Shown: positions 14,432-30,137 of the stretch, piece by piece
Numbering within the stretch: position 1 is the first letter of the stretch
Layout: each line of letters starts with the position of its first letter
IMG/VR virus record: IMGVR_UViG_3300032893_000068
Location: 1 to 51,897 of that record
DNA length: 51,897 nucleotides
Source: a virus
Lineage: Duplodnaviria; Caudoviricetes
Reading direction: 5' to 3' (one strand)
Notes under the pieces: generated by a model
The model's database searches: none
Seen by the model: the letters and a program-made list of their open reading frames with translations, nothing else
What the model was told of the DNA's origin: nothing
Program-made: the position numbers and the translations under genes

Positions 14432-15340
14432 TTACCACCATCCCCATAATCTATTTCTTAGTGGGAATTTCGCAGGAGTACCATCCACTCTTGGTGTTAG
14501 TACTTGAATCAAACTTTTCTTACAATCTTCTGCTTGCATTTGAAACACTTGAAATGCTGGATCACCTGTATATTGGAGAATACGAGCAGCCGTGAGAGCT
14601 TCCAAGAGTCGTTGTGCTTCTACTGGAATTTGTGGAATAGGAGAAGTATTTGCTTCACTCACCCAATCGCCGATGGTAAGAGCAGAAGGTACAGAAGTAA
14701 AAGTAAGGATAAAGCCATTGATAGCTGTAATAGTTTGGTCATCGCCATGACTCGAAAAAGGAGATTGTGAAGCAATGCAGTCAAAAGTTGTTGATGTAGT
14801 CCATGTTGTCGGAACAAACGTCAGTGTCACTTCACCTGTAGTTCGATTGATTGCAACTACTTGTCCGGCATCACTTGTTGAGCAAAGAGTATTGGGTCTA
14901 CGAAAATAATTCATCCGAACAAATTGATAATTTGCAGCACCAAGAAGATTTCCAAGTACCAAAACAATATGATTATCCATTGGATAGAAACCAAATTGAT
15001 ATGGAGCATAAGCCCAAGAAGATTTCATATCTTCCGGTTGAATGTAATTTAGAAGTACTTCATTGCCTTGATTGTCAACAAGCATGACATCACGAAGTTT
15101 AGATCCACTTGCTCGTTGAGGAATTTCATACGTCAAAGTTCCCTGAACAAAAGGATTGTCCTTCATTGTCACCCAATATTCTTGCTTCACACTCTCAATG
15201 AATGGAATGATTGTAGATTGCAATTCTTCCGAAGCAATACGAATCATATCATCATCTGAAACAAGACTCTGATTTGAGGCATTCATACTGCGAGTCTTGA
15301 CAGATGTGAGCAAAGCATCTGTGCTATAATCTACGGCCAT
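14432..15340 (-). CDS. Tail tubular protein A / head-tail adaptor
   Basis: Size and position, helical N-terminus, GTLTYEIP motif. Confidence 0.65.
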   Translation of the reverse strand: MAVDYSTDALLTSVKTRSMNASNQSLVSDDDMIRIASEELQSTIIPFIESVKQEYWVTMKDNPFVQGTLTYEIPQRASGSKLRDVMLVDNQGNEVLLNYIQPEDMKSSWAYAPYQFGFYPMDNHIVLVLGNLLGAANYQFVRMNYFRRPNTLCSTSDAGQVVAINRTTGEVTLTFVPTTWTTSTTFDCIASQSPFSSHGDDQTITAINGFILTFTSVPSALTIGDWVSEANTSPIPQIPVEAQRLLEALTAARILQYTGDPAFQVFQMQAEDCKKSLIQVLTPRVDGTPAKFPLRNRLWGWW

Positions 15341-15353
15341 TGTGTTCTCCTAA

Positions 15354-15375
15354 TTAGCAGTTTGCGAATTGCTAA
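15354..15375 (-). promoter_or_regulatory. Hairpin directly upstream of the adaptor-gene RBS
   Basis: Minus strand TTAGCAATT-CGCA-AACTGCTAA followed by TTAGGAG. Confidence 0.45.
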
Positions 15376-15387
15376 TACTGGGGTAAA

Positions 15388-15909
15388 TTATTTGTGATGC
15401 CAGTGTTTTGCGTTTTCTGCGAATTGAGCACGCTTGCGAAGGGTTTCATCCTCAGAATGAGTAGCCTTTTCAAGCTTTCCAGAAGGAATTGGCTTGCTTT
15501 CAGGAACATGAAGATCATGATGAAGCGCACCTTTCTTAAGTCCTTCCAAAAAATGAGGAGTTTTCACCTCTCCACCTTCGGCCATTCCCTGCTCTTGTTT
15601 CTTTTGGGAAACAATCGCCGCAATAGACGGATCAATATGTTCTTCTTTATCTTCAGGCAGATTACCTTCATCATCAGCAGAACTTGCTTTATCCATCAAT
15701 TCCGGTAGATTATCTTGACCATCTTCCTCATCATGTTCCGTTGGTTCTGGTTCATTATGAGCTTCCACCATAATTTCAGCATGTTTTGGTTTCATGTGAT
15801 CTGGTAAGTAGCCATCCGCATCCATCTGATCCATTTCATCAGCTATTTTGCGGAGAACTTGACTTATCATATCAGCATCTTGTTTTTCATCATCGTGCAT
15901 TGGTTGCAT
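15388..15909 (-). CDS. Acidic/His-rich virion-associated protein
   Basis: Likely start MQPMHDD after GGAG. C-terminal KKGALHHDLHVPESKPIP...RKRAQFAEN motif common in phage late proteins. Confidence 0.7.
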   Translation of the reverse strand: MQPMHDDEKQDADMISQVLRKIADEMDQMDADGYLPDHMKPKHAEIMVEAHNEPEPTEHDEEDGQDNLPELMDKASSADDEGNLPEDKEEHIDPSIAAIVSQKKQEQGMAEGGEVKTPHFLEGLKKGALHHDLHVPESKPIPSGKLEKATHSEDETLRKRAQFAENAKHWHHK

Positions 15910-15925
15910 TGTATTCTCCATTAAA

Positions 15926-16084
15926 TTAAAGTTGTGATTGCAAAGCTGCAAGTGCAGTTAAATAATCTGATTCTGATAAAATGGTTCCTGTAAGTCCTTG
16001 AGCAATAAGCATTGCTAAAATATCTTCTTCAGACATTCCGTCAAATTTACAAAGTGCGCCATCTGATCGAATAAGATAAACCAT
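15926..16084 (-). CDS. Small protein after the tail spike, possible fibre chaperone (52 aa)
   Basis: AAGGG RBS; MVYLIRSDGALCKFDGMSEEDILAML... Confidence 0.6.
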   Translation of the reverse strand: MVYLIRSDGALCKFDGMSEEDILAMLIAQGLTGTILSESDYLTALAALQSQL

Positions 16085-16093
16085 AGTATTCCC

Positions 16094-19000
16094 TTATCGA
16101 ATTCTAACTGCTGAAATTCGACCGTAAAATTGTGGTTGAGTTCCACTACTAAAAGTAGTACTGACTTTTAAATAATGGGTTGTCGTTCCTGACAAAGAAA
16201 CTCTATATCCTGGAATTGCTGCTGAAGTTTGTGTACTACCAGTAATTTGAAAATATCCAGTTAAAGAAATTTCATTATCTCCCAAACTAAGTCCAGTTCC
16301 ACTATCTCCTGAGGTAGTACTAACTCCCATAGCATAATTAGAAACTGTTGTATTGGTATTGTCTAAAAAATTTCCAATTACTGAAATTAACCAGTCACCC
16401 GCTGTAAGACTAATTGATGTAGCATCAGCCCAAGTAACACTATTACTAAGTGAAACAGCAGATACAGCAGATGAAACAGTTTGTCCAACATTTCCAGCAG
16501 CAGCATTATCATTTGTTGTTGTACCAACAATTCCTTGAGTGGATGTTGAAGTAAATGCAATATTTCCTGAGAATGTACTAGCACCAGCAGAAGAAATACT
16601 TTGTCTAGCTCCCCAAGATGATCCATTAAATGTCCAAAATTCTAATCCTGTTCCAGCCGATTGGGTAGCAGCTGCCACAATTCCACTTGTACCAGCATTA
16701 TTATACCCAAGAATTATACCTGGTTTATCAGAAATTTGAGAAGAAGTTGATTTGCCCCGAATAACTGACATAAATGCGCCGCCAGTTATATTTGTACCAG
16801 CTTCTACATCTAAACTTAATTGGGGAGTTAAACGAATACCAACTTGATGATTCGTACTATCTACATATAAATCATTCGTATTAACTGCTAGTGTATTTCC
16901 AGATGATCCAGATACTGCCAAATTCGGAGTAGTTGCTGTTCCAGTAAATGTTGGACTTGCTATAGGAGCTTTAGCATTCAGTTGTGTTTGTATAGCTGAA
17001 GTTACGCCAGAAACGTACCCAATTTCTGTGGCTGTAGTTGTAGCAGCAATAGGAAGGCCATTTGAATCTGAAACAAGTGCGCGACTTCCTGTAATAAGAG
17101 TAAGTCCAGAAACAGTTGTTCCATTAGCAGCATAATAAGTAAGTTGATATTGAGTACCTGAGGATACTGTACCACTTCCACCACCAACTGAAAGAGGAGT
17201 CCAAACACTACTTGCTCGCAAAAATAATTCAGCTAAATCTGTATCGTAAACAACTAATCCATCAGTAGGACTTGAAATAGCATTGCGTTGCATAGTAGTC
17301 ATACGCGGTGGCAAGAAACCTTTAGTCGTTGAAGTCAAACTTAAAATTGAAGATGAATCAAGAGTAGAACCAAGAGCAAGTGTTCCAAATTGAACATTGG
17401 CTGAAGTATCAATATTTTGCGGAGTACCAAAAGTGACTGTTCCAGCACCATGAGTAATAGTTACTTGATTAGTTGTTGGAGTAAGAGTTTTATACTCATT
17501 TGCCGTAGCGCCAGCATTTGCACCAATAATCTGATTGGCTATTCCAGGAGCTATTTTTGTAATAGCAATAGCAGCCGAAGCTGAAATATCAGCATTTACA
17601 ATCTGACCCCAACCTGAAAGAATAAAATTAGATGTTCCACCAGCATCAGGTACAGTATATATACGACTGGCTGCTGGGGCGCTTACTGAGATTGTAGTAG
17701 TATTTGTAGTACCAAGAACTAATTGATTGGATGTTGCACTTATAAGTAATGCAGTTGATAAATATAAATTTTTCCAATGATTAGTTCCAGCTATACCAAG
17801 ATTATATGTATTAGTTGAAGCGGGATAGAAACCATTGCTACTTTCAGTAATCCAAACTGCTGCGCCATTTGATGTATAGCCCAGCATATTAGTTCCAGCT
17901 TTATAAAATCCGGTATTTACAGCATTAGATAATTTTAATGATGGAGAACTCGATGATCCATCAGCAAATGCTAAAGGTGTTTCAATAGTAAAAATACTGA
18001 CAGGAGATGTACTATCTAAGGTAACAGTGCCACCTGGAAAATTATTTCCATAAAGTGTATTTTTATTGGTTTGTCCAGCAGTACCTTCACTGTAATAAAG
18101 AGTTGTAGAACTTACAGTACCAGTATTTCCAGCAATGACACAACCAGTAGTTCCGATAGCTGTATTTGGGCCACCAAGAAGTGCAATAGCAGCAGCCCCA
18201 GATAAAGTTGTATCCCAACTTGGAATACTATTATTAGCAATGACAATCCCAGGAGCATCTTGAGCAACAATAGCATTATCAATACAACCATCAATTATAT
18301 TATTGACAATTTGACAGCCAGTTGCTACTCGTGTATCGCCACTTACTTGATTTGCAGCAGAAACAAAAATTGCAGATGATCCACCGTTGGAAATATAATT
18401 TCCTTGAATTAATACATTGCTTGGAGCACCTAATAGTCCAGGAGCAAGATAACCGTAAATATGAATAGACCCATTCTCAATATAGTTATTGATAATTCGA
18501 GATTTTACCATCCCAAAATCAGACCAAATTTGACCATTATGGGATGAAGCTCCTGTAGATTTATTCCCAATCCATAGAGCATCAGTTACATGAACATTGT
18601 CAATTGCAGTTCCATTTGGAGATTTGATCCAGTTAAAAGCAAAAGTTGAATGAGATGTATTTCCTCCACCAATAGAATCTTGATTACCATGTTTTCCACA
18701 ATCCTCAATTACACAGAAAGCAACTGTAGGATTAAGCAATCCATAAGTTCCATCATCTGCTGCCATGTGGAATCCATATCCCTGAGAACTAAGAACATGA
18801 ACACGAGTAGCTAAGAAATCGGTCATGTTAAATACGCCATATCCTTGACCAGTTCCATCCCCAGTAGCATTTGGCATACCAGAACAATCAAGTTTTATAT
18901 CAACAATAGCTGCGCCCATTCCAGGAGAAACAGTAGTGTAAAGTGTTCCATTAGCTTGGGCGCTGTAAACAAGAGCAGTATCAACTGGAAAAGATCCAGA

Positions 19001-19705
19001 TTTTGCAATGATAGATGATCGCTCAATTCCTGCACCCTTTAACATAATATTAGAAGGATGATAAATACTATTTGTTACTGCGTAATTTTTTGTAAGTAAA
19101 ACAGTGCCACCACCAGCAGCACTAACTGCTGTTATAGCATTACGAATGGCTGTAGTATCATCAGTAGTTCCATCACCAATAGCTCCATATTGCTCAACTG
19201 GCACAATAAGCATATTGTATTGTTTATTATTAAGTTGAGTTTGAATGGATGAAGTTACCCCATTGACATAACTAATCTCAGTTGCAGTAGTAGTTGCTAC
19301 AACTAAATTTCCACTTCCATCAGTAACTATAGCGCGAGATGGGGTATAAATTCCCCCACCGCCAATTGGAACACCATTAAAAGTAAGTTGGTCTGAAGAA
19401 TTAACTAAAAGAGAAAGATCAGCATTATTAGCAGCATTTCTCCATGAAATAGAGTCTGAAGTATTTGCAAGGCGCAGAATTCCAGTAGAAGCAATATTAA
19501 TTGTTTTGCTTTTGTAATAAAGAGACTTTAGACCAAAAGAAGCGCCAAAATCTGTCTCTGTAGACAGAGTAAAAGCTCCTCCGGTCTTTTGCAAACAACC
19601 AGCAGCAATAGCAATAAGGTAGTTGCTAACATTATTTCCCCACCCTACTTCTCCCGTTGCGGGGATGATGTAGTTCTGACCATTAAATGTAACCAATGAC
19701 GACAT
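16094..19705 (-). CDS. Tail spike/fibre with a right-handed beta-helix (pectate-lyase-like depolymerase)
   Basis: VEQYGAIGDGTTDDTTAIRNAI...GGGTV beta-helix entry motif, many (I/V)xxNxI repeats, N-terminal attachment domain. Confidence 0.85.
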   Translation of the reverse strand: MSSLVTFNGQNYIIPATGEVGWGNNVSNYLIAIAAGCLQKTGGAFTLSTETDFGASFGLKSLYYKSKTINIASTGILRLANTSDSISWRNAANNADLSLLVNSSDQLTFNGVPIGGGGIYTPSRAIVTDGSGNLVVATTTATEISYVNGVTSSIQTQLNNKQYNMLIVPVEQYGAIGDGTTDDTTAIRNAITAVSAAGGGTVLLTKNYAVTNSIYHPSNIMLKGAGIERSSIIAKSGSFPVDTALVYSAQANGTLYTTVSPGMGAAIVDIKLDCSGMPNATGDGTGQGYGVFNMTDFLATRVHVLSSQGYGFHMAADDGTYGLLNPTVAFCVIEDCGKHGNQDSIGGGNTSHSTFAFNWIKSPNGTAIDNVHVTDALWIGNKSTGASSHNGQIWSDFGMVKSRIINNYIENGSIHIYGYLAPGLLGAPSNVLIQGNYISNGGSSAIFVSAANQVSGDTRVATGCQIVNNIIDGCIDNAIVAQDAPGIVIANNSIPSWDTTLSGAAAIALLGGPNTAIGTTGCVIAGNTGTVSSTTLYYSEGTAGQTNKNTLYGNNFPGGTVTLDSTSPVSIFTIETPLAFADGSSSSPSLKLSNAVNTGFYKAGTNMLGYTSNGAAVWITESSNGFYPASTNTYNLGIAGTNHWKNLYLSTALLISATSNQLVLGTTNTTTISVSAPAASRIYTVPDAGGTSNFILSGWGQIVNADISASAAIAITKIAPGIANQIIGANAGATANEYKTLTPTTNQVTITHGAGTVTFGTPQNIDTSANVQFGTLALGSTLDSSSILSLTSTTKGFLPPRMTTMQRNAISSPTDGLVVYDTDLAELFLRASSVWTPLSVGGGSGTVSSGTQYQLTYYAANGTTVSGLTLITGSRALVSDSNGLPIAATTTATEIGYVSGVTSAIQTQLNAKAPIASPTFTGTATTPNLAVSGSSGNTLAVNTNDLYVDSTNHQVGIRLTPQLSLDVEAGTNITGGAFMSVIRGKSTSSQISDKPGIILGYNNAGTSGIVAAATQSAGTGLEFWTFNGSSWGARQSISSAGASTFSGNIAFTSTSTQGIVGTTTNDNAAAGNVGQTVSSAVSAVSLSNSVTWADATSISLTAGDWLISVIGNFLDNTNTTVSNYAMGVSTTSGDSGTGLSLGDNEISLTGYFQITGSTQTSAAIPGYRVSLSGTTTHYLKVSTTFSSGTQPQFYGRISAVRIR

Positions 19706-19737
19706 AGGTTATCCTTTGAGACTAAAGATGAACTGAC

Positions 19738-20277
19738 TTACGATGCGGAACCGTAGTTTTTAGAAACCTGTTTGCCGTCCGATCCACCTGAAAAGGCTGT
19801 TGCAGTGACATTGGTAAGACCTTCAGAAATCTGAAGTCCATTGCCCATTTTGCCAGGAACAACTGCTGTGATTGTTACAACACCCAAAGCAGATGTAGCT
19901 GTAACCACGCCAGACAAAGCTGCAACACTGTTGATAGCAAGAGCAATATTGGCAGCTTGAGTTGTTGGTGTAGCACTAATATTGAATTCACCATTGGCTG
20001 GAACTGCCCCAGATGTTTTCGCTGTGAGAGTCGTGTTAGCTACCAATGCTGTTTCACTATCTACAGCAGATCCAGTTGAGGTCATTGTAGCTGTGGCTTG
20101 AACCACTCCTGTAGCAACTTTAGTATATGAAGTTTGATTTCCGTCAACAATGGAGGTAAACAAAGCCTCAACAGCTTGTTCACTATAGGATGTGGCATTG
20201 GTATCAATGTCAAGTTTGGCTTGCATTGTTGTGGCTGAATCTGGAACTGAATGAATTATACGAACGAAAGATGACAT
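19738..20277 (-). CDS. Virion structural protein (head fibre or decoration-like)
   Basis: Directly after the capsid gene; AINS...VTATSALGVVTITAVVPG.GN motif. Confidence 0.65.
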   Translation of the reverse strand: MSSFVRIIHSVPDSATTMQAKLDIDTNATSYSEQAVEALFTSIVDGNQTSYTKVATGVVQATATMTSTGSAVDSETALVANTTLTAKTSGAVPANGEFNISATPTTQAANIALAINSVAALSGVVTATSALGVVTITAVVPGKMGNGLQISEGLTNVTATAFSGGSDGKQVSKNYGSAS

Positions 20278-20301
20278 TTAATTTCTCCTAAAAATATGAT
20301 T

Positions 20302-20382
20302 GATGTGTTGGATGATAGGCCCTAGAAGGAATAAAACCTTCTAAGGCCCATTTTTTCAACACACCATTACAGTGTGTTTGAA
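20302..20382. terminator. Hairpin set downstream of the major capsid gene
   Basis: GGCCCTAGAAGG-AATAAAA-CCTTCTAAGGCC stem followed by a T run on the + strand. Flanking GTGTGTTG/CAACAC arms can also pair. Confidence 0.6.
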
Positions 20383-20387
20383 ACTGA

Positions 20388-21665
20388 TTAGCTTAACGAA
20401 ATGTTGTAGATCAACACGCAGCGAGCCGGAAGCTCAATGAAGATTTGCTGGTTTGTCCACAGACGCAACTCATAAGCATTGTAGCCAGGAACATATTGGA
20501 AGAATTCATCACTGCCCATAACTTGCGGCATGAATTCAATATCCATAGAACCAATACGTTGCATGTGTTCAAAAGGCAAAATGAAGCAATCGCCTTGTTT
20601 CACATACAGGCTAGGAGTGATATTCATCGTACCATTCTGCGAATAGAACGTGAGCTTCTCAGCGCCATTCTCCATAACAGATTTCTTATACGAGCTATCA
20701 AACCGACGCGCACCAGATTGAGATGTAACCAAGTTCGCCCAAACTTTCGGGTTCACCAGAACATCCACTTCTGTATCCAAACCACGACCAACAGCAATAG
20801 CAACAGCATTTTGCAGAGCCAAGAAGGTTAGTTTACCAGAGTTGTTATCGACAGTGTTAGCTTTCCACAAGTCATAGGTCGCAGCACTGATATTGAATAG
20901 CGTACCTGTGTTTGTTAGGATTGTATACACACCTGTCATTTCATTTCCATAAGCACTATTGAAATAAATATCCAGAGTTGTAGGAGTCGTCACAACTAAC
21001 GCATGAAGGGCAGCAATACCAGTTGTAGAGCCACTTACTGTCAATGTGCGAAGGGTCGGGTTAACTGCTGTAATTGTAAAGATTGAATCAGCACCCGAAC
21101 TAACAAGTGTAACACCATTATAGAACTGAACTTGGTTGTTCACTGTCCCGGCCCAAATACCATCACTCCAAGAAGCTTCTGTGAAAGCAACGATTTCATG
21201 CGTTGTGTCCACATTCGAGGAACCAGTAAGAGCCGTTTTACCTAAACCCGCACCACCATACAACGCAGCCAATTCGACACGTTTGGACATCGAATCAATC
21301 ATACGCTTTGTGATGAGTTTGGTAGCCGACAAGAACGCTGCGCCCGATCCGAGGGACTGGGAGAGAGCGTCATAAGAGATTTGAGAAACCAGCGTGATTT
21401 GCGCGGGACGCACTTGAGCATCCGGCACGTTCAAGCTGATAGGGCCGTTCAACGCATAGTTACCAGCGTTATTCGCGGCATAGGTGAAGCCAGCTTCATC
21501 CGACAAGATAACGGGGGTGTGGAAAGCGTTACCGACGAGTGTAGCTTTGTTGAATTCTACGTTCTTCAACAGAACGCGGGACTCAGGGATCGCATCTTGA
21601 ATACCTTTCGGATTGTAGCGTTCCTTAAAATCACCGATAATTGACGAGGGAATTGTTGCAGCCAT
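20388..21665 (-). CDS. Major capsid protein (HK97 fold)
   Basis: 425 aa, between scaffold and tail genes, strongly biased codons, ends in PARCVLIYNI. Confidence 0.85.
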   Translation of the reverse strand: MAATIPSSIIGDFKERYNPKGIQDAIPESRVLLKNVEFNKATLVGNAFHTPVILSDEAGFTYAANNAGNYALNGPISLNVPDAQVRPAQITLVSQISYDALSQSLGSGAAFLSATKLITKRMIDSMSKRVELAALYGGAGLGKTALTGSSNVDTTHEIVAFTEASWSDGIWAGTVNNQVQFYNGVTLVSSGADSIFTITAVNPTLRTLTVSGSTTGIAALHALVVTTPTTLDIYFNSAYGNEMTGVYTILTNTGTLFNISAATYDLWKANTVDNNSGKLTFLALQNAVAIAVGRGLDTEVDVLVNPKVWANLVTSQSGARRFDSSYKKSVMENGAEKLTFYSQNGTMNITPSLYVKQGDCFILPFEHMQRIGSMDIEFMPQVMGSDEFFQYVPGYNAYELRLWTNQQIFIELPARCVLIYNISLS

Positions 21666-22046
21666 TGTAGATTACTTCCTTTTAAATGAATTTTTATTTG
21701 TTACGTTTTATTCAATAGGAACTTAGACAGGAATAGACTTAGGTGTGTCATCAACAGTTTTCACCATTTCTATTGCGTTATGGGCTTCTATTTTGCTCTG
21801 CCACCGTCCCTACATTGCAGGGGTGGGAGGACTTATATGGTAGCGGAAGATGGAATCGAACCACCGATCTTAAGCTTATGAGGCTTACGAGATGCCATTT
21901 CTCTATTCCGCGAATTGGCTTGATTTTTTACATGGATTGCAAGCCAGCGGCCATGTTGCTCAATCTTTCGATATTTTGCGAATTATAGGCTTTCCCTGAC
22001 CAGGGGCGTCATTACGCTAGGGGAAGTCAACCCCAAAACGCCTAAA
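21666..22046 (-). ncRNA. Structured intergenic RNA modules flanking tRNA-Met (four-way junction, two pseudoknots, long stems)
   Basis: Complementary segments read directly from the sequence; see findings. Confidence 0.5.
21838..21912 (-). tRNA. tRNA-Met(CAU), initiator-like, CCA encoded
   Basis: CGCGGAA TA GAGA AATGGCA TCTC G TAAGC CTCATAA GCTTA AGATC GGTGG TTCGATT CCATC TTCCGCT ACCA. C1:U72 mismatch and A11:U24 pair. Confidence 0.93.
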
Positions 22047-22259
22047 TTATGCGAATTGTTTACTAAGTGCTGCTTCAAGAACCAGAATTGATTGATCCCA
22101 GGCATCAGCATCACTAAGTCGCTTCGTCCCTAATACTAAATCTTCTTCTATATATGCTTCATGTACTTCATATCCACCATTTTTTTCAAGAAGAAAATAG
22201 GCAATAATTGGCTTTACTTTTCGTACTTCAGCAATAGATTTAACAGTTTCCTTAGCCAT
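22047..22259 (-). CDS. Hypothetical protein
   Basis: 70 aa, TAATG-coupled to the scaffold gene. Confidence 0.7.
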   Translation of the reverse strand: MAKETVKSIAEVRKVKPIIAYFLLEKNGGYEVHEAYIEEDLVLGTKRLSDADAWDQSILVLEAALSKQFA

Positions 22260-23221
22260 TATCTTCCACCTCGCTCTCTTTCCTCTTTTGCAGCACGATC
22301 AATGGATTTCCAATACTCATGTGAATTTTTCCATTTCTTTTCTTCTGGCTTCGCAGATCCAGCCTCACCTGCTGCGCCAGCTTTACCACCTTTCAACGGA
22401 TCTTTCACTTTGGTAAGGCTATGTTTCAAAATTGCATCTACAGCTTCTTGGCCGATCAATTCAATCAATTGTTCTGGTGAAGCACCGCGAAGAACACCGC
22501 TCAGTCCACTACGAACTTCTTTGACAACCAATGGAGCTACTTCTTTCATCGAAAGAAGAACACCATGCTTCTGTCGAACTTGATCTACTGCACGAGCTAA
22601 TTCAGCGACAATTCGTGCTGTCTTAGGCAACTGCGGAAAGGCTTCAAGAGCCTCAATTGCTTCTGCATGAAACCGCTGTTCCAATGCTTTAGCTTCTCGT
22701 TCAATCTTGGCTTGTTCTCGTGTTTGTTTTTCAGCAGCTTCTCTTTCTTCGTACTCTTTGATTTTCTTTTGGGCTTTTTCAAGCTCAATTTCACGAGGAT
22801 CACGAAGTTGATTTTTTACATCCTCTGCAACCTCATCATAAGCAAATTTCTTTGGGTCAAGACCAGTTTTTTCAAGAAATCCTTTCGGATCTTCTTTCGC
22901 CATTTTGAAAACTCGCATGGCTTCTTTCTTGGCTTTGCTGGCCTCTAAAAATTTCTTATCGGCACCCTTGGCTTTTTCAATCAAAGCTTTCATTTCGGCT
23001 ACAGTATATTCTTCACCTTCGCCAATTTTAATCTTCTCAATCGCCGTCTTTACTTCAGCTTTATCTGCTGCTGTAACAGAGGCAGCTTTTGTGTCTGTAC
23101 CTTTGTTTACTGGTTCACCATTCGGTTTAACCAATGCACCTTCTGCTTTGACATTGCTCAGATTGGATAAATCTGGCGTTGCATTGGGTGTAGCTGGTGC
23201 TACTGGGGCATTGTCTGCCAT
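22259..23221 (-). CDS. Capsid scaffolding protein
   Basis: Highly charged coiled coil between portal and capsid genes. AAGGAG RBS. Confidence 0.8.
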   Translation of the reverse strand: MADNAPVAPATPNATPDLSNLSNVKAEGALVKPNGEPVNKGTDTKAASVTAADKAEVKTAIEKIKIGEGEEYTVAEMKALIEKAKGADKKFLEASKAKKEAMRVFKMAKEDPKGFLEKTGLDPKKFAYDEVAEDVKNQLRDPREIELEKAQKKIKEYEEREAAEKQTREQAKIEREAKALEQRFHAEAIEALEAFPQLPKTARIVAELARAVDQVRQKHGVLLSMKEVAPLVVKEVRSGLSGVLRGASPEQLIELIGQEAVDAILKHSLTKVKDPLKGGKAGAAGEAGSAKPEEKKWKNSHEYWKSIDRAAKEERERGGR

Positions 23222-23286
23222 ACTATTTCTCCTTTAACGCTGTTCTCTTAATACTGCGGAACCTACGTGGCCTCAACTACTACTGC

Positions 23287-23640
23287 TTAAAGATATTCGA
23301 TGTTGACGATAACTTGATTCGCGGCAGGAGCCGTGTTATCATTATCAGCTACGCCAGTAGAAGCCCTCATGCTTATTCCTGTCGTAAAATTGATTCCATC
23401 TACTGAACTCCACGGTAAAGTTTGATTCGCTTGCAACGGAATCGTATGCGTGGGAGTGTCACTACTTGTCGGGGCTGTTGCTTTGTCGTACAACTTCACA
23501 TACACAATAGAACCAGCCGTGTTAGACAAAAGTGCTGTGAAAATTTGTCCTGCATTCGCTTTAGCAATCTGACCTGTTGTAGACAGATTGATATTACGAT
23601 ATGTTTTGTAGGGAAAATTCCCTGTTAGTAAGTTTGACAT
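23287..23640 (-). CDS. Small beta-sandwich virion protein
   Basis: VYVKLYDKATAPT...GINFTTGIS, similar to the C-terminus of 2935..3771. Confidence 0.7.
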   Translation of the reverse strand: MSNLLTGNFPYKTYRNINLSTTGQIAKANAGQIFTALLSNTAGSIVYVKLYDKATAPTSSDTPTHTIPLQANQTLPWSSVDGINFTTGISMRASTGVADNDNTAPAANQVIVNIEYL

Positions 23641-23649
23641 TTGAAATCC

Positions 23650-25878
23650 TTATTGTGGCATCCCTGGATGTTGGGGTACAGTTTGTTGTAAATTTTTGTA
23701 GGCATCTTGTATCATTGCTGGTGATCCCTTCGGAAGATTCGGCATTCCAGGTATAGCAGGAGCATTTGCCTTATCATTCGCCGGAACATTCTGCATCACA
23801 CCAGGAAGATTTGGTGCCGCTGGCACCTTTGATCCTCTTGGATTAGTTATCTGCCCTGGCACTCCTGGCGCATTTGGCGGGTTTCCGGCGGGATTCCCTT
23901 GCTGCGGAGGTTGCGGCGGTGTAACCGGCAAACCAATCTTTTGATCCAATTCAGCTTGTGCTTGCGGAGGCAAGTCTTTGTAATTGACTTGGATGTTGAT
24001 TCTATCATCTGACCCAGGAGCCGGAGGCTGTTGAGCTTGCGGTCGAGGCGGAATGTTTTGAATCGCCAGCATAGCAGGATTGTTTGCTGTGATTTGCTGC
24101 CACATTTGGTCATGCTGCATAAATAGATCAAGCGTATTCTTAACAATCGGACTATTAGCCTGACGACGAATTTCTGGATCAGACAACAAAGTGAGAAGTT
24201 CACGCATCCACAATGGATGATTGTCAGTTGTCAAAGCAACAACTTGTTTTCCATTCTGCAAATCTTCAAGTGCAGCTTTAATGGACATGAGTTCTGCTCT
24301 TTCATAAGCATACAAGGGCTCAAGTTGACCTGTACGAAGCACTGTAAAATATTCCTCTTTCGTTAGGACACCTGAGTTCATCAATTCCTGAGCAATTTGA
24401 ATTCTTCCAGCCAATGTGTTCATCAACGGATTTCCAGCTTCAACAAGAACACGGTCAATGTCTGCAATATCAGTATTAACAAACTCTCTCGCCAATGAAC
24501 GATTGTTCACACCAGAAATCAGAATGAGTCGTGGAGTTGTAGCGAATTCTTTGAGAATATCAATGATGCCAGTCCATGTTTCTTCCATTAAGGAATTATA
24601 TGAACGAGCAAGGGGACTGATAAAAGTTAGAGCTTGCGATGCAATAAATGCTAAAGCTGTCCCTGATTTTAGATTGGCTTCTGGATTTCCTTGAATCGTA
24701 TCATTGACACCGGAAATTTGGGCCATCTTCTGTTCAAGATACTCAATCCATTTAAAGATTTCCCCAGCCGTGGCGAGGAGATTAAGTGGCTCTGGTTTCG
24801 CTCCCTGAGTAACTGCTGCATCATAATAGATAGCGTTAAGTCCTTCAGTGAGTTGTTTAAGAGCAACTGATGTTTCTCTAGGAATAAGAATATTTTGCAC
24901 ACCGAATGCAGCTTGATTCGTTGTGATAGTCGAACAAAGGGCATTATACACCTTTTGAATCGGAAGAAGATCCATTGACACTGTATACGGGAATGGTGTA
25001 TTGAGTTGACGATCTGTAGCGATCCGACTCAGCGGAATTCGCTTATACGGCAATTCACCATCGAACAAGCATGTGTTCCCATCAATGAAAAGAGTAGCTC
25101 TACCACTTGGCAGAGTTGAAGTTTTCTTATGATAGAATGTATACAAAGGCACCAAGTCTGTATTTGGTTCATTGACCAAATGCCCAAGACGATGCCGCTT
25201 AACTACAGGAGAAATTGAAAGAGCTTTGATTTGCTCAGCATATTGTGGGAACTTGGCAACCAAATCCCAACGATTCACATATTTCCGCAAAATGTACCAA
25301 CTGCATTCTTCCCAAGATGATGCTGAATAGTCAAAAATGACATCTAGGGGATTGTAGGTCGAGATAACGAAATCACCTTTTGTTGTATTCGTTCCCGTTT
25401 CAGGATCAGACCCGTATACATCACCAAGGGTAGCATCCCACTCACGGGCGACGTAAGAACAACCCATAAGTAAAGCAATTTCAGTAGCGTTTTCATACAT
25501 ATCCTCTAAACGCTTTTCTTTTTCTACATAGTTCAGAATGTTTTTGCAAAAATCTACTTGAGCTTGGGATTCATAATCGCTGTTCACAGCAACAGGAATC
25601 GGGGTAACACGTTGCGCCGTCACCAAAGACAATAGATGGCGAAGAATGGCTCTGAAATGGTTTATGTTAAGACGCATAAAACCATCTGCTCCATAAGTCG
25701 GAAATAGATAATTTTGTTCATTGACTAAAAAATAATGATAGTACAAATCACGCCAATTAATCCAGCGCCCCGACATATCAAGATAACGATCAAATTCATC
25801 CACTTTATCGGTAAGAATACCGCAAAGTTGAAGGGGATCAACTGTAGCCCAATATTGGTCAAAATTTGTTGAATTCAT
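23650..25878 (-). CDS. Portal protein
   Basis: 742 aa directly after terL; QISGVNDTIQG...SGTAL podoviral portal motif; long Pro/Gln-rich tail. Confidence 0.9.
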   Translation of the reverse strand: MNSTNFDQYWATVDPLQLCGILTDKVDEFDRYLDMSGRWINWRDLYYHYFLVNEQNYLFPTYGADGFMRLNINHFRAILRHLLSLVTAQRVTPIPVAVNSDYESQAQVDFCKNILNYVEKEKRLEDMYENATEIALLMGCSYVAREWDATLGDVYGSDPETGTNTTKGDFVISTYNPLDVIFDYSASSWEECSWYILRKYVNRWDLVAKFPQYAEQIKALSISPVVKRHRLGHLVNEPNTDLVPLYTFYHKKTSTLPSGRATLFIDGNTCLFDGELPYKRIPLSRIATDRQLNTPFPYTVSMDLLPIQKVYNALCSTITTNQAAFGVQNILIPRETSVALKQLTEGLNAIYYDAAVTQGAKPEPLNLLATAGEIFKWIEYLEQKMAQISGVNDTIQGNPEANLKSGTALAFIASQALTFISPLARSYNSLMEETWTGIIDILKEFATTPRLILISGVNNRSLAREFVNTDIADIDRVLVEAGNPLMNTLAGRIQIAQELMNSGVLTKEEYFTVLRTGQLEPLYAYERAELMSIKAALEDLQNGKQVVALTTDNHPLWMRELLTLLSDPEIRRQANSPIVKNTLDLFMQHDQMWQQITANNPAMLAIQNIPPRPQAQQPPAPGSDDRINIQVNYKDLPPQAQAELDQKIGLPVTPPQPPQQGNPAGNPPNAPGVPGQITNPRGSKVPAAPNLPGVMQNVPANDKANAPAIPGMPNLPKGSPAMIQDAYKNLQQTVPQHPGMPQ

Positions 25879-25881
25879 TTA

Positions 25882-27315
25882 TTACCTTAATTTAAACATT
25901 CGTCTAATAGCATCATCTGTGGTAGATGTATCTTGTTGTGGAATTTGATTATTCGGAAACATAGTCCGTGAAACATCTAGATTATACAATGGCGGAATTG
26001 GATTGATATTTTGTACTGTTGGGATGAGTCCAGCGATCAAATATACAAAAGCATCAACAAAATCATAATGTCCAAGTTCTGCACTTCGCTCAAAATCCTC
26101 TCGATTACGTTTCCAGATTCCAAATTCGAGTGAAGTAATAAGCATCCGACACCGAGGGTGGATAACCACCTTGCCAGACCTGACATATTGACGAGCCTGG
26201 TTGACCATCCATTCTTTGCCACTTTTTTTACTTACCGGAGCAAAAGGTAATTTGTATATCCGAGCAAGATCTGCAATAATATTAAGATTATTATTATCGG
26301 CAATACGTCTAATGCGAACGTTGTTGCTATCTCTATAATTTCCTTCAAGCTTTGTTACTTCCTCAGCAAACTTTTCTGTTGTAAATTCATTCTCTCGTAA
26401 AGCTAGTTCATACTCGATAACAAGCCGAGCGTTGTTAAAATCATAATAACCCAAAATCCAGGCTGTGAAGTCTCGATAGCCCACATCCATTGACTCAACT
26501 GGGATATAGAAACGGAAGAAATCATTTTTTTCAACTTCTCCAACAAACTTGGTTGAGTCCCATTCAGGGATGATTTGAAGGCTGCTCTCTGTAACAAACT
26601 TACAGAAATATTCTCGTTGGCTAGTGGTGCTATCCCGTCCGCCAGATTCTTCCAAAAATCGCTGTATTTCATCTTTTGTGTACCAACTTTCATCAATCGT
26701 GTATTCGCTGTACGCCCCCCTTGCTTTGGCTTTCTCAGCATACACTTTGTATGGATGATCTGGTGTTGTGGGAGGTGTAGATGGAAGAATGATCTTCTTT
26801 CTTGGGCTGCTGCTGCTCAAAAGCTGTGGCAAGGCAATGTCTTTAATCACTGTTGTCAAATCATCAACGTCACGAGCCTCATCAATGACGAATTTATCTG
26901 ACTTGTTTCCACGCAAATTGTTGTACTGAAGATTGTTACAGCCGCAAAGTTTGATAAAACTGCCATTATCAAATACTACTTTGTTTTCTAAGCTCTTAAA
27001 TTTCGGCCTCAAATCTTCAGGGCAATCTTCAAGCAGTTGATTCAAGATGGGAATGAGATATTCCTTCACTTGATTCTGATAAGGAGCAGCAAAATGAATG
27101 TGAGACTTGGGAGTGCGAATGGCTTCTTCGATACAGATAAGAAGCATTGTAGTGGTTTTTCCCAAACGACGAGAACAATTCACTACATCAATTAATTCTT
27201 TACTCTCCGTTACCGTCTTGTAAATCTTTTTCTGGACTGGTTTCAGCTTGTAGATCAGATTTCCCTGAATCCACGCTTGTCGGATTGCTTGTTCCCGTTG
27301 TTCCGGTGTGAGCAT
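25882..27315 (-). CDS. terL: Terminase large subunit
   Basis: Walker A SRRLGKTT, Walker B FVIDEARD, coupling motif PSTP, RNase H-like nuclease MDVGYRD...HYDFVDA. Confidence 0.95.
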   Translation of the reverse strand: MLTPEQREQAIRQAWIQGNLIYKLKPVQKKIYKTVTESKELIDVVNCSRRLGKTTTMLLICIEEAIRTPKSHIHFAAPYQNQVKEYLIPILNQLLEDCPEDLRPKFKSLENKVVFDNGSFIKLCGCNNLQYNNLRGNKSDKFVIDEARDVDDLTTVIKDIALPQLLSSSSPRKKIILPSTPPTTPDHPYKVYAEKAKARGAYSEYTIDESWYTKDEIQRFLEESGGRDSTTSQREYFCKFVTESSLQIIPEWDSTKFVGEVEKNDFFRFYIPVESMDVGYRDFTAWILGYYDFNNARLVIEYELALRENEFTTEKFAEEVTKLEGNYRDSNNVRIRRIADNNNLNIIADLARIYKLPFAPVSKKSGKEWMVNQARQYVRSGKVVIHPRCRMLITSLEFGIWKRNREDFERSAELGHYDFVDAFVYLIAGLIPTVQNINPIPPLYNLDVSRTMFPNNQIPQQDTSTTDDAIRRMFKLR

Positions 27316-27682
27316 CGGTTTCTTTTTCCAATTCCTTCAGTAGATTGAATGCAACATCTGCTGCTTTTTTTGATTCCTCTTGTTTTTGCTCTTTCTCAGT
27401 GACGGGTTTTCTCTTGGCTTTCTGATATTCCAAAAGTTCCATCCAAATCTTCATTTCTGCTTCCAAGGCTTTCCGTTGATATTCCAAAGGACAAGTACGA
27501 AGAAGTGCAGCAATCTTAATCAACTCTTCCGCAGGATCTTTTCTAAACCGATCAAATACTGTCTTGGGCTTATTCTTAACTCCCTTTGGGCGGCCAGTTA
27601 AATTGGCGTGAGGAAATTCTCGTTTACGACCTGTAAGGGGACTAATCTCTGGTTCTTTTGATATTTCTTTATTTTCTTCCAT
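27200..27682 (-). CDS. terS: Terminase small subunit (putative)
   Basis: GRPKGVKNK motif, directly upstream of terL and overlapping it by 116 nt. Confidence 0.7.
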   Translation of the reverse strand: MEENKEISKEPEISPLTGRKREFPHANLTGRPKGVKNKPKTVFDRFRKDPAEELIKIAALLRTCPLEYQRKALEAEMKIWMELLEYQKAKRKPVTEKEQKQEESKKAADVAFNLLKELEKETDAHTGTTGTSNPTSVDSGKSDLQAETSPEKDLQDGNGE

Positions 27683-27691
27683 AAAATTTTT

Positions 27692-27763
27692 AGCCCCCTA
27701 AAGGAATCGAACCCTTGTCAGCGGTTTACAAAACCGATGCTCTACCGATTGAGCTAAGAGGGC
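27692..27763 (-). tRNA. tRNA-Thr(UGU), CCA not encoded
   Basis: GCCCTCT TA GCTC AATCGGTA GAGC A TCGGT TTTGTAA ACCGC TGAC AAGGG TTCGATT CCTTT AGGGGGC T. Confidence 0.9.
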
Positions 27764-27769
27764 ACCGAT

Positions 27770-28138
27770 TTACTTGTATATTTCTTCGGATCGAGGAGAC
27801 TGAAGCTTTTTGAAGGCAAGTTCCGCTGCGGCAATGGCCAGAAATAGTTCATCTCCGGCTGTCGGCTGAAAACTAGGCTGTGTAGACAAAGACAAAACAG
27901 CAAACATATCCGCTCCACATTGATTCAGAGCAAGATCAATTTGCTTATCTGCCGTCTCTCTACGAATATCTTTAAAAATCGTCATGGCGCGAGACTGAAT
28001 CCAGCCTTGTGCTCTCTTCGCTGCCCAGCGTTCAATGAAATTGGGCTTCTCATGAATTACAAAATTGTTTAAGAAAGTGTTGAAAGACCGCAGAGCCAAG
28101 ACATCATTAACAGCAAAAACCAAGGCTACGCTTAGCAC
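27770..28138 (-). CDS. Hypothetical protein with N-terminal signal or TM segment
   Basis: GTG start, packed in the operon. Confidence 0.6.
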   Translation of the reverse strand: MLSVALVFAVNDVLALRSFNTFLNNFVIHEKPNFIERWAAKRAQGWIQSRAMTIFKDIRRETADKQIDLALNQCGADMFAVLSLSTQPSFQPTAGDELFLAIAAAELAFKKLQSPRSEEIYK

Positions 28139-28365
28139 GTCAGAGTTCCACCTTGAATTGTGTTCGAGCCAGTTGTGCTACAACCCACAATGTTCGGTTG
28201 ATACCGCCACCAAGGATACCAATAGTTCGATGGTTGTCCACAAGTGGGACATCTGTGGCACGTAGGACACACACCTACTTGTTGAATATAGCCAGATGTG
28301 TGTTGTTGGTTCAAATTAAAATTCTGGCCTTCTGTATTGTTCCATTCCGGTAAATTATTTTCCAT
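28132..28365 (-). CDS. Small protein with a CPTCHRCPTCG motif
   Basis: Start MENNLPEW after GGTGG. Confidence 0.6.
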   Translation of the reverse strand: MENNLPEWNNTEGQNFNLNQQHTSGYIQQVGVCPTCHRCPTCGQPSNYWYPWWRYQPNIVGCSTTGSNTIQGGTLTC

Positions 28366-28774
28366 AATTAATCCACCGGACATCTTTACTTTTAAGGTAG
28401 TTTGACGCAATATGTACTAAGAAAGACGTGATTTTATCTGTCTTTTTTTCTTTCTTTTTTGATTCTAAGGATTCTAATTCATACAACTGTTCTTTGAACA
28501 AAAAATCATTGAGTTTTTTACTTTGAGTAGGAGATAAATTAATCTCTTTACTTATTTTTTCAATAAAGGCATTAACAAAACCAAAAGGGATGTAGCAATA
28601 ATTTTTATCTACAGCTTTATCATCTTCTTTCCATCCCTCATTGGTAAAAATATTTCTTCTTCCGTCACCTGGTGCTCTGATGATAAACTGCACACTATCA
28701 TAGCCTGGGATATATGAATGCCACAGTTGAGCTGTTTTTGTTAAAAATAGACTATCGTTAGAAATATTAAACAT
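28355..28774 (-). CDS. Hypothetical protein (AT-rich)
   Basis: 139 aa ORF, coupled to its neighbours. Confidence 0.6.
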   Translation of the reverse strand: MFNISNDSLFLTKTAQLWHSYIPGYDSVQFIIRAPGDGRRNIFTNEGWKEDDKAVDKNYCYIPFGFVNAFIEKISKEINLSPTQSKKLNDFLFKEQLYELESLESKKKEKKTDKITSFLVHIASNYLKSKDVRWINYGK

Positions 28775-28890
28775 TATTTATCTCCGAAAATCTTGTTCAA
28801 TTCTTCCCAAAGCATCTTCGCTTCCTCAAAAGTCATTTCAATCGGTTCGCCTTGCGGACTGTACACTTTTATCTCAATCCTCATTCCCAT
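28774..28890 (-). CDS. Small hypothetical protein (MGMRIEIKVYSPQGEPIEMTFEEAKMLWEELNKIFGDK)
   Basis: AAGGA RBS, fills the gap, TAATG coupling. Confidence 0.6.
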   Translation of the reverse strand: MGMRIEIKVYSPQGEPIEMTFEEAKMLWEELNKIFGDK

Positions 28891-28896
28891 ATCCTT

Positions 28897-29735: not shown

Positions 29736-29769
29736 ACGTTTTTCGTCTTTTTCCCCCCAAAATCCCTGT

Positions 29770-30039: not shown

Positions 30040-30137
30040 TCTTTCTATGCTCTATTCTTTAAGGTATCTAAGAAAAATCTTTCAAACCTAAAGGGAACGA
30101 TGCCACTACTTCCCCCGCCCTACCTACCGGCCTATTC

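What the first reader, a model, noticed from the sequence alone, without database searches (positions are those of the whole stretch)
21910..22057. Two tRNA-sized structured RNA modules stacked 5' of tRNA-Met, each delimited by AATTCGC
Seen on the minus strand: AATTCGC occurs at 22057, 21984 and 21916 (spacing 73 and 68 nt), and the last copy spans the tRNA 5' end (AATT^CGC). Module 1 is a four-way junction: TAGGC(G)TTT/AAAGCCTA closes GGGG-TTGACTT-CCCC, GCGT-AATG-ACGC and CCCT-GGTC-AGGG, with possible TGAC/GTCA loop-loop pairing. Module 2 is an H-type pseudoknot: CATGG/CCATG crossed by TGGCTTG/CAAGCCA. Inference: an array of small processed RNAs or a new cis-regulatory motif at the scaffold-capsid junction. 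Caveat: the first AATTCGC is in coding sequence, and a TATAAT in module 1 could instead be a promoter.
Basis: partly seen in the sequence, partly recalled or inferred. Interest (0 to 1): 0.75.

Follow-up and report, generated by a model that had tools for sequence, protein, structure and literature searches.

The report
Swappable folded-RNA cassettes before phage capsid gene
Between the scaffold-side genes and the capsid gene, this uncultured phage and its relatives carry a hypervariable string of interchangeable tRNA genes and small folded RNAs; the first module is a conserved, uncatalogued RNA fold, and the second has no support beyond a simple hairpin.

Summary
The letters are as described, but the reading needs correcting. 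AATTCGC does occur three times. That is not unusual: the genome has 24 such heptamer triples. Copy 1 encodes the end of a conserved small protein. Copies 2 and 3 lie in a 19-nt imperfect duplication.

Module 1 (22046-21984, minus strand) is real. Two other phages carry it in the same spacer. Nine of 22 pairs, including the proposed loop-loop contact, show compensatory changes.

Module 2 has no relative. Its pseudoknot is within chance.

In 25 distinct spacers of related phages, tRNA-Met, tRNA-Asn and at least eight folded-RNA families swap places. Each unit ends in a stem plus an A/U-rich linker, ahead of a constant capsid leader. Rfam 15 matches only the tRNAs.

Best reading: co-transcribed RNA cassettes that punctuate and process the late message. 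No RNA data exist, so processing is inferred.

This scan has noted similar RNA-cassette arrays in other phages.

The parts
22047..22259 (-). Conserved small ORF (70 aa), directly after the scaffold-like gene. Its last codons hold AATTCGC copy 1 (22051-22057).
   Evidence: ORF list. Homologues of 60-76 aa sit upstream of the spacer in the relatives. No Pfam or PHROG family. AF2 model pLDDT 82 with a three-strand sheet and one helix; no clear fold match.
21984..22046 (-). Module 1, a conserved structured RNA. P1 is 22046-22040 with 21990-21984. P1b is 22039-22037 with 22018-22016. P2 is 22034-22031 with 22023-22020, loop 22030-22024. The single-stranded junction is 22015-22006. P3 is 22005-22002 with 21997-21994, loop 22001-21998. 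Loop-loop pairing is 22028-22025 with 22001-21998.
   Evidence: Homologues in L018 (77% over 61 nt, E 4e-11) and L010 (65% over 68 nt, E 0.004). Alignment A2. 22 pairs, 93.9% of cells paired, 9 pairs with changes on both sides, 0 of 500 shuffles reach this, slid controls give at most 1. RNAalifold consensus. No Rfam match at E up to 10.
22006..22015 (-). Nearly invariant 10-nt junction of module 1 (GUAAWGACGC).
   Evidence: One variable position and one gap among three homologues, while the flanking stems vary by compensatory changes.
21978..21984 (-). AATTCGC copy 2, the A/U-rich linker after module 1. It opens the 19-nt imperfect repeat.
   Evidence: D1: 21966-21984 against 21898-21916, 79% identity, spacing 68.
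21913..21983 (-). Module 2, a lineage-specific unit. It has a 3-bp GAAA-loop mini-hairpin (21972-21963). A 7-bp hairpin (21946-21940 with 21922-21916) ends 3 nt before the tRNA. The proposed crossing stem is 21955-21951 with 21935-21931.
   Evidence: Sequence. Fold z -0.1. Chance rate of such crossing stems is 0.14 per 72-nt window. No homologue in 24 other spacers or among 75 IMG/VR pattern hits. The hairpin-plus-linker arrangement before the tRNA recurs in relatives.
21910..21916 (-). AATTCGC copy 3, made of the linker AATT plus the first three bases of tRNA-Met.
21838..21912 (-). tRNA-Met (CAU) with encoded CCA. It is one of the interchangeable cassettes.
   Evidence: ARAGORN. Rfam RF00005 60.1 bits with the first acceptor pair non-standard. 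tRNA-Met sits in the same spacer in 9 of 25 distinct spacers.
21666..21837 (-). Constant structured capsid leader that every cassette array abuts. This is a neighbouring finding, used here only as the anchor.
   Evidence: The leader-start motif was located in 25 of 25 spacers, 23 by pattern and 2 by hand.
20388..21665 (-). Major capsid protein gene, used to fetch relatives.
   Evidence: PHROG major head protein. 83-92% amino-acid identity over the best segment in 36 of the 38 loci fetched (the short-fragment loci L029 at 78% and L038 at 98% fall outside), and 89% in the locus.

Best explanation
The finding sits in a hotspot for RNA cassettes. In this group of uncultured phages, the non-coding spacer between a small conserved ORF and a constant capsid leader holds zero to several independent units. 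The units are tRNA-Met, tRNA-Asn and at least eight families of small folded RNAs. Each unit closes with a helix followed by a short single-stranded A/U-rich linker, AAUUU or in this window AAUUC.

The units lie in the sense direction inside the long late operon. No promoter or terminator is recognisable among them. The tRNA starts 0-2 nt after the linker in 8 of its 9 copies (5 nt after it in L018), so they must be transcribed together.

Most likely mechanism (inferred, not shown): the folded units with their A/U-rich linkers are cutting points for host endonucleases. RNase P would cut at the tRNA 5' end, and an RNase E-type enzyme at linkers next to structured units. Cutting would release the tRNA, leave small stable RNAs, and give the capsid message its own protected 5' leader.

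Module 1 is one such cassette and a true conserved RNA. It is a three-way junction whose two hairpin loops pair with each other, around a nearly invariant 10-nt junction. That is more specific than a mere spacer needs, so it probably also binds something. What it binds is unknown.

Module 2 is a lineage-specific filler. It is a hairpin plus linker before the tRNA, and its first 19 nt are a diverged copy of 'linker plus tRNA 5' end'.
For: Cassette nature.
- 25 distinct spacers of 195-642 nt. 24 of them hold between one short hairpin and several units; one (L038) holds none.
- Local similarity groups the units into recurring families.
- In three sister phages (a clade with 99/98 support on the capsid-gene tree), the left unit and the leader align. 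The slots between hold tRNA-Met plus tRNA-Asn, or hairpin plus tRNA-Met plus module 1, or tRNA-Asn plus another family.
- Module 1 lies before the tRNA in the window, directly after it in L018, and without any tRNA in L010.

Boundaries.
- 27 of 28 non-tRNA unit ends have at least 4 bases of a 3' stem strand in the 12 nt that end 3 nt before the boundary. The figure is 40% for 1947 control positions.
- 23 of 25 leaders are preceded by ATTT.

Co-transcription.
- There are 0 promoter-like and 0 terminator-like sites in 21400-22500.
- Counts across 15000-31500 are at chance level.
- The tRNA 5' end abuts the linker.

RNA rather than DNA.
- Compensatory changes occur in module 1.
- G-U pairs exist only on the sense strand: U-G at columns 13/34 in 3 of 3 sequences.
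- Weaker covariation is seen in other families.

Precedent.
- RNase E prefers RN|WUU in single-stranded A/U-rich RNA (PMC5222698, passages read).
- The capsid gene is also followed by two hairpins without a U-tract.
Against: - No RNA evidence exists. No RNA run holds the region, so transcription, ends and stability are all inferred.
- The host is unknown, so its set of RNases is unknown.
- Module 1 has only three members. They are related sequences, so the shuffle controls overstate significance.
- Single-sequence folding energies of the three are unremarkable (z -1.4, -0.4, -0.5).
- A 4-nt P3 loop fully engaged in loop-loop pairing is sterically tight unless the closing pair opens. That pair is unpaired in 1 of 3 sequences.
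- If any stable hairpin were enough for punctuation, the invariant junction of module 1 and the sequence-conserved cores of other families remain unexplained.
- The A/U-rich linker also matches what recombination at microhomology would leave behind. The boundary motif alone therefore does not prove processing.
Confidence: 0.5

Rival explanations
1. The cassettes are trans-acting accessory RNA genes, like the tRNAs they swap with. Module 1 would be a small stable RNA that binds a host or phage factor or a small molecule, for example as a decoy against a host defence. The spacer would be a highly expressed landing pad for such genes.
For: - Module 1 keeps its fold and a nearly invariant 10-nt junction, but not its position relative to the tRNA or the leader. 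That fits a self-contained RNA better than a position-dependent cis-regulator.
- It occupies the very slot that a tRNA-Asn gene fills in a sister phage.
- Its distribution on the capsid-gene tree is patchy, as for accessory genes.
- T4-type tRNA gene regions also carry 'RNA species I and II' (PMC2330249, figure legend passage).
Against: - No target was found. The complement of the invariant junction is not enriched in the genome: 6 matches with up to 1 mismatch against 3.9 +/- 2.0 expected, including the module's own site on the opposite strand.
- No partner protein was identified.
- The family has only three members, all in one phage group.
- There are no expression data.
Confidence: 0.2
2. 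DNA- or transcription-level cassettes of the PeSL type. Each unit would be a terminator-like stem-loop plus a promoter-like A/T-rich box. These would drive modular shuffling by recombination and set transcription levels.
For: - The stem-loop followed by a conserved A/T-rich box recurs at every boundary.
- The mosaic distribution implies recombination at these boundaries.
- In some loci the same 9-nt A/T-rich word flanks a unit on both sides (L022).
- PeSLs of T4-type phages are stem-loops plus promoters that mediate exactly such shuffling (PMC2839356, abstract read).
Against: - In 8 of 9 tRNA-Met copies the tRNA starts 0-2 nt after the box (5 nt after it in L018), so the box cannot be that tRNA's promoter.
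- No sigma-70-type promoter or U-tract terminator was found in 21400-22500.
- The -10-like letters are not conserved. The window has TATAAG where relatives have TTAAAT or TAAAAT.
- The box does not recur elsewhere in the genome as a general promoter would. There are 4 AATTTAAA sites, none at other late genes.
- Complex folds with loop-loop covariation and sense-strand G-U pairs point to RNA function.
Confidence: 0.1
3. One or both modules are small self-cleaving ribozymes of an undescribed class. They would cut the late transcript next to the tRNA, as theta (HDV-like) ribozymes, hammerheads and twisters do in other phages.
For: - Module 1 has a compact three-way junction with tertiary loop-loop pairing and an invariant junction, as hammerheads do.
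- In L018 it starts 1-4 nt after the tRNA CCA. That is the position that theta ribozymes take at phage tRNA 3' ends (PMC10879173, abstract and section 7 read).
Against: - No known ribozyme family of Rfam 15 matches at E up to 10, or at E up to 0.5 in 13 related loci.
- The hammerhead core letters are not present. This is my own comparison with the consensus as I recall it, not a tool result.
- In the window module 1 lies 5' of the tRNA with another module between them. In L010 there is no tRNA at all.
- The tRNAs here encode CCA, unlike 95.5% of theta-associated tRNAs.
Confidence: 0.07
4. The modules are decayed tRNA genes or functionless debris of recombination, and their stems are chance. 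This applies mainly to module 2.
For: - Module 2 has no homologue, no unusual stability and a chance-level pseudoknot.
- Its first 19 nt are a 15/19 copy of the linker plus the tRNA-Met 5' end.
- Both modules are tRNA-sized.
Against: - Neither module aligns with any of 10 tRNA genes of this phage group better than shuffles do (p at least 0.08 for module 2, at least 0.70 for module 1).
- There is no tRNA match by Rfam at E up to 10.
- ARAGORN finds none at thresholds lowered to 60%.
- Compensatory changes in module 1 exclude drift for that module.
Confidence: 0.08

Closest known systems
tRNA gene clusters of T4-type phages that also encode small stable RNAs ('RNA species I and II')
   Same: tRNA genes and tRNA-sized non-tRNA RNAs lie side by side in one phage locus whose content varies between related phages (PMC2330249, passages and figure legend).
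   Different: Here the locus sits inside the late morphogenesis operon, directly before the capsid leader. The non-tRNA units belong to many unrelated families, and none resembles a catalogued RNA. That the T4 species are co-transcribed and processed with the tRNAs is my recollection, not something read here.
PeSL (promoter-early stem-loop) regulatory cassettes of T4-type phages
   Same: Short stem-loop plus A/T-rich box units mark the borders of swappable modules, and the pattern of differences between relatives implies recombination at them (PMC2839356 abstract).
   Different: PeSLs flank protein-coding ORFans and contain strong sigma-70 promoters and working terminators. Here the cargo is itself RNA, no promoter or terminator consensus is found, and the box abuts the mature tRNA 5' end.
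Theta ribozymes (minimal HDV-like ribozymes at phage tRNA 3' ends)
   Same: They are small folded RNAs placed directly beside phage tRNA genes and thought to process them (PMC10879173). Module 1 of L018 starts just after the tRNA.
   Different: No HDV-like match was found in Rfam. Module 1 is a three-way junction with kissing loops, not a nested double pseudoknot. In the window it lies upstream of the tRNA. The tRNAs here encode CCA.
RNase E processing of polycistronic tRNA precursors and mRNAs (structured unit plus single-stranded A/U-rich site)
   Same: Structured units, whether tRNA or simple stem-loop, are interchangeable and flank A/U-rich linkers that fit RN|WUU (PMC5222698; PMC9841416).
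   Different: This is a mechanism, not a family. The host and its RNases are unknown and no cleavage has been mapped.
Purine riboswitch aptamer (three-way junction, L2-L3 kissing loops, conserved junction)
   Same: The overall architecture of module 1 is similar: P1, two side-by-side hairpins joined by loop-loop pairs, and conserved junction letters. The comparison with the purine aptamer is from my own knowledge.
   Different: No Rfam match. P3 is only 3-4 bp. There is no expression platform. The position relative to downstream genes is not fixed.
t-elements of plant mitochondria (tRNA-like structures that define mRNA ends)
   Same: Folded RNA units in place of tRNAs punctuate a polycistronic transcript (PMC1920247, title and start of abstract from a search listing).
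   Different: t-elements are tRNA-like and are cut by RNase P and RNase Z. The modules here are not tRNA-like by any test run.

Membership tests
tRNA (Rfam RF00005) | Cloverleaf with a 7-nt anticodon loop and conserved D- and T-loop letters, detectable by the covariance model or ARAGORN | tested here: not met
   There was no tRNA match on the modules at E up to 10. ARAGORN found none at default, 80% or 60% thresholds; only noise appeared in metazoan-mitochondrial mode at 80%. Alignment to 10 tRNAs of the group is no better than shuffles. In the four-way reading the 'anticodon' loop has 4 nt.
HDV-like / theta ribozymes | Nested double pseudoknot (P1, P1.1, P2, P3) with a catalytic C in J4/2 | tested here: inconclusive
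   No HDV-family match in Rfam 15 at E up to 10. The covarying helices of module 1 form a three-way junction instead. No dedicated descriptor search (RNArobo) was run.
HDV-like / theta ribozymes | Cleavage site within 5 nt of a tRNA 3' end | tested here: not met
   In the window both modules lie 5' of the tRNA. L010 has no tRNA. Only the L018 copy follows a tRNA.
Hammerhead, twister, twister-sister, pistol, hatchet ribozymes (Rfam) | Match to the family covariance model | tested here: not met
   No match at E up to 10 in 21500-22400, nor at E up to 0.5 in 13 related loci totalling 52,859 bases.
Purine riboswitch (RF00167) | Three-way junction with L2-L3 kissing loops | tested here: met
   Architecture only. 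P1, P2 and P3 plus 4 loop-loop pairs, 2 of them with compensatory changes.
Purine riboswitch (RF00167) | Conserved junction letters and a match to the family model | tested here: not met
   No Rfam match at E up to 10.
PeSL cassettes | Strong sigma-70-like promoter in each unit | tested here: not met
   0 promoter-like sites in 21400-22500. The box abuts the tRNA 5' end.
PeSL cassettes | Stem-loop that terminates transcription | not testable with these tools
   Stems are present at 27 of 28 unit ends, but none has a U-tract. Termination itself cannot be tested here.
PeSL cassettes | Module exchange between relatives at the cassette borders | tested here: met
   Sister phages differ by whole units between shared borders.
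Type III antitoxin RNA arrays (ToxI-like) | Tandem direct repeats of one unit of about 34-36 nt | tested here: not met
   Tandem Repeats Finder found 0 arrays in 21500-22400 at score 30. Modules 1 and 2 share only the linker word.
Pan-phage GAAAGA-loop leader hairpin (earlier notes of this scan) | Hairpin of at least 4 bp with a GAAAGA-type loop a few nt before tRNAs | tested here: not met
   A script scan for stems of at least 4 bp around seven loop words found 0 in the 25 spacers. Module 2 has only a 3-bp GAAA-loop mini-hairpin.

The most novel reading that the evidence does not exclude
The spacer before the capsid leader is a dedicated, highly expressed landing pad for accessory non-coding RNA genes. 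They are exchanged between phages like gene cassettes. Module 1 would be the first member of a new class of compact RNA: a three-way junction locked by kissing loops around an invariant GUAAWGACGC core. It would act on its own, as a ligand- or protein-binding RNA, a decoy against a host defence, or a new self-cleaving ribozyme.
Probability: 0.2. Interest if true: 0.85.

Novelty: new variant of a known kind. Interest (0 to 1): 0.6.

Why it matters
Phage genomes are annotated almost entirely by their proteins. Here a short non-coding stretch in front of the most conserved and most expressed gene is the most variable part of the locus. The capsid protein is 85-90% identical across the aligned relatives, while the small ORF beside the spacer is 27-51% identical.

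This spacer is built from interchangeable folded RNAs that swap with tRNA genes. If the units are processing signals, they show how a phage without internal promoters sets the scaffold-to-capsid ratio and matures its tRNA. If they act in trans, they are a pool of at least eight uncatalogued phage RNA families. Module 1 is small (63 nt) and has a clear, testable tertiary contact, so it suits structure probing.

Tried and rejected
- **Known RNA family.** Rfam 15 at E up to 10 on 21500-22400, and at E up to 0.5 on 13 related loci, matched only tRNAs.
- **More members of module 1.**
  - An exact 29-mer found 0 hits in IMG/VR.
  - A 17-nt degenerate core gave 3 hits. One is the known L010 contig and two are coding chance hits.
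  - A gapped pattern gave 70 loci, 69 of them new. With model R1 the best E was 0.09, and the two I inspected (L083, L109) read as coding sequence.
  - R1 over 34 sources (218 kb) found only its three training sequences.
  - R1 over three whole virus records found only L010's copy; L018 and L014 are not held.
- **Module 2 homologues.** blastn-short against 24 other spacers gave a best E of 0.86. A gapped IMG/VR pattern gave 75 generic hairpin hits, none similar beyond the pattern (best E 0.12).
- **Family F outside this phage group.** A 31-nt pattern found only the two known contigs.
- **Decayed tRNA.** Rejected.
- **Promoter reading of TATAAT.** Rejected.
- **Antisense or seed target of the invariant junction.** Not enriched.
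- **RNA evidence.** No RNA holder is listed. The two listed runs are DNA contigs of wetland metagenomes, and one may be the source. Laying them gave no cover of the modules in the independent run. It showed only that the source sample holds a second related phage with a different spacer.
- **Small ORF as an RNA-binding partner.**
  - The AF2 model is good (pLDDT 82).
  - Foldseek's best match is E 0.12, with weak dsRBD rows.
  - The VIA-align wide search's best match is Z 5.5, below the usual noise level.
  - No conclusion can be drawn from these.
- **Isolated relatives.** The best phage record shares 29.7% identity over 43% of the capsid protein. DNA-level hits fall only on the tRNA.
- **Literature.** PMC10690425 reports 10,006 candidate structured RNAs in viruses, five of them upstream of a capsid family (passages read). 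Its tables are supplements, which are closed, so I cannot say whether any of these modules is among them. Five full-text searches turned up no description of this spacer system. That is the basis for 'not found in print'.
Full report
**What is at the coordinates.** The window is a complete 51,897-bp virus record. PHROG profile matches name a large terminase, a portal, a major capsid protein and a DNA polymerase, so the record is a tailed phage; nothing here fixes its morphotype.

On the minus strand the order is:
- a scaffold-like gene (23221-22259);
- a 70-aa ORF (22259-22047);
- 381 non-coding bases (22046-21666);
- the major capsid gene (21665-20388).

ARAGORN and Rfam place tRNA-Met at 21912-21838. 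AATTCGC lies at 22057, 21984 and 21916 as reported.

**Is the heptamer repeat meaningful?** It is not meaningful by itself.
- The word is not enriched: 10 matches against 8.1 expected.
- Three same-strand copies of some heptamer within 150 nt occur 24 times in this genome. They occur at least once in 97.5% of 200 shuffled genomes.
- Copy 1 encodes the last residues of the small ORF.
- Copies 2 and 3 belong to a 19-nt imperfect direct repeat (15/19, spacing 68). It consists of the linker plus the first 15 nt of module 2 or of the tRNA. This local duplication explains the tRNA-like spacing.

**Relatives.** No isolate is close. The capsid protein fetched 12 IMG/VR loci, 26 metagenome loci and one contig of a metagenome-assembled genome labelled Actinomycetes.
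- Best-segment capsid identity to the window is 83-92% in 36 of the 38 loci. The exceptions are two short fragments, L029 at 78% and L038 at 98%. The locus is 89% identical. The 12 full-length relatives aligned are 85-90% identical.
- The small ORF is only 27-51% identical to the window's across the 21 aligned relatives.
- The spacer between the small ORF and the capsid gene is hypervariable. There are 25 distinct versions of 195-642 nt.
- All 25 end in the same structured leader.
- Upstream of the leader, one locus (L038) has nothing. The others have between one short hairpin and several units.
- tRNA-Met is present in 9 of 25 and tRNA-Asn in 2 of 25.
- Local similarity groups the remaining units into recurring families: A (module 1) and B-H.
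- Rfam matches only the tRNAs in 13 of these loci.

**Module 1.** It has two homologues:
- In L018 it lies directly after that phage's tRNA-Met (77% over 61 nt, E 4e-11).
- In L010 there is no tRNA in the spacer (65% over 68 nt, E 0.004).

On the three-sequence alignment I tested two foldings.
Six of 17 pairs have changes on both sides, and 0 of 500 shuffles reach this.
- However, its GCGT/ACGC helix never covaries and is broken in two of three sequences.
- RNAalifold prefers a three-way junction in which that C pairs with the G next to the closing stem, and this pair is compensated (G-C to C-G).
Nine pairs have changes on both sides, 0 of 500 shuffles reach this, and slid controls give at most 1.
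- The loop-loop helix reads GACU/GGUC in the window and AAUC/GAUU in L010.
- The 10 nt between P2 and P3 are nearly invariant.
- G-U pairs occur only on the sense strand, so this is an RNA fold, not a DNA cruciform.

There are caveats. The family has three related sequences, single-sequence stabilities are ordinary, and no further members were found.

**Module 2.**
- Its two crossing stems exist. Such pairs occur about 0.14 times per 72-nt window in this genome.
- The fold is no more stable than shuffles.
- Nothing similar was found in the other 24 spacers or in IMG/VR.
- One feature does recur. A hairpin ends a few bases before the linker that precedes the tRNA, as in the relatives.

**The general rule.** In 27 of 28 non-tRNA unit ends, a 3' stem strand lies just upstream of the boundary. 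The same holds for 40% of control positions. The boundary itself is A/U-rich, with ATTT before 23 of 25 leaders.

On the capsid-gene tree the families are scattered. Within one well-supported clade, the sister phages L004, L018 and L002 share the left unit and the leader. Between them they carry different units, and module 1 of L018 occupies the slot that tRNA-Asn fills in L004.

**Mechanism.**
- No promoter-like or terminator-like site lies among the units.
- In 8 of 9 tRNA-Met copies the tRNA starts 0-2 nt after the linker (5 nt after it in L018), so the upstream units are its 5' leader.
- The units are therefore co-transcribed within the late operon.
- Structured units separated by single-stranded A/U-rich linkers are what RNase E-type enzymes use. 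Adjacent tRNA units can be replaced by simple stem-loops in that role (PMC5222698; PMC9841416).
- RNase P must cut at the tRNA.
- I therefore read the array as RNA punctuation that frees the tRNA and gives the capsid message its own structured 5' end. The capsid gene also has hairpins at its 3' side.
- All of this is inference, because no RNA run holds the region.
- The specific, conserved core of module 1 suggests an extra role that I cannot name.

**Rivals.** I considered four alternatives:
- trans-acting accessory RNAs;
- PeSL-like promoter-terminator cassettes (PMC2839356);
- new self-cleaving ribozymes, by analogy with theta ribozymes (PMC10879173);
- decayed tRNAs.

Each is weighed in its own section. 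The last is rejected for module 1 and remains possible for the start of module 2.

**Earlier notes of this scan.** They describe comparable RNA-cassette arrays in other phages. They gave me the theta-ribozyme lead. Their GAAAGA-loop hairpin is absent here.

Noticed in passing
L010:3349-4000 and L011:3379-4021: In two relatives the capsid gene is split after about codon 46-47 by an insert of roughly 0.65 kb. The insert carries its own ORF with Cys and His motifs, which looks like a group I intron with a homing endonuclease. I did not run a family scan on it.
   Followed up: no
L035:880-1284: One relative has a free-standing ORF with Cys pairs and a His-rich motif, which looks HNH-like. It is inserted between the capsid leader and the capsid start codon.
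   Followed up: no
window 22047-22259 (-): A small protein of 60-76 aa always precedes the RNA cassette array. It has an invariant GG and a D-x-W motif. It has no Pfam or PHROG family, a confident three-strand-plus-helix model, and no clear fold match.
   Followed up: partly
related spacers, e.g. L003:3738-3812, L007:3687-3761, L015:1901-1975 (family B); L027:1054-1134, L054:1167-1245, L010:2933-3021 (family G); L002:3574-3676, L004:3571-3672, L018:2047-2146 (family F): At least seven further recurring folded-RNA families share the spacer. Some have compensatory changes: 3 of 16, 4 of 20 and 2 of 26 predicted pairs. None is in Rfam. Family G has a hairpin with a covarying stem and a conserved 10-nt loop.
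   Followed up: partly
window 20278-20387 (-): Two strong hairpins without a U-tract follow the capsid stop codon. Together with the 5' leader they bracket the capsid message.
   Followed up: no
window 20388-21665 (-) versus neighbours: The capsid protein is 85-90% identical across the aligned relatives. The adjacent small ORF is only 27-51% identical. That is an unusually steep contrast within one operon.
   Followed up: no
window 27692-27763 (-): The second tRNA (Thr) has no encoded CCA and different flanks. It has no stem-plus-linker unit before it. The cassette grammar is therefore specific to the capsid spacer.
   Followed up: partly
run X1, contig record 3: The probable source sample holds a second related phage. 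Its contig matches the capsid start and the scaffold gene but replaces 21666-22833 with 1174 other letters. This is another spacer variant in the same community.
   Followed up: no
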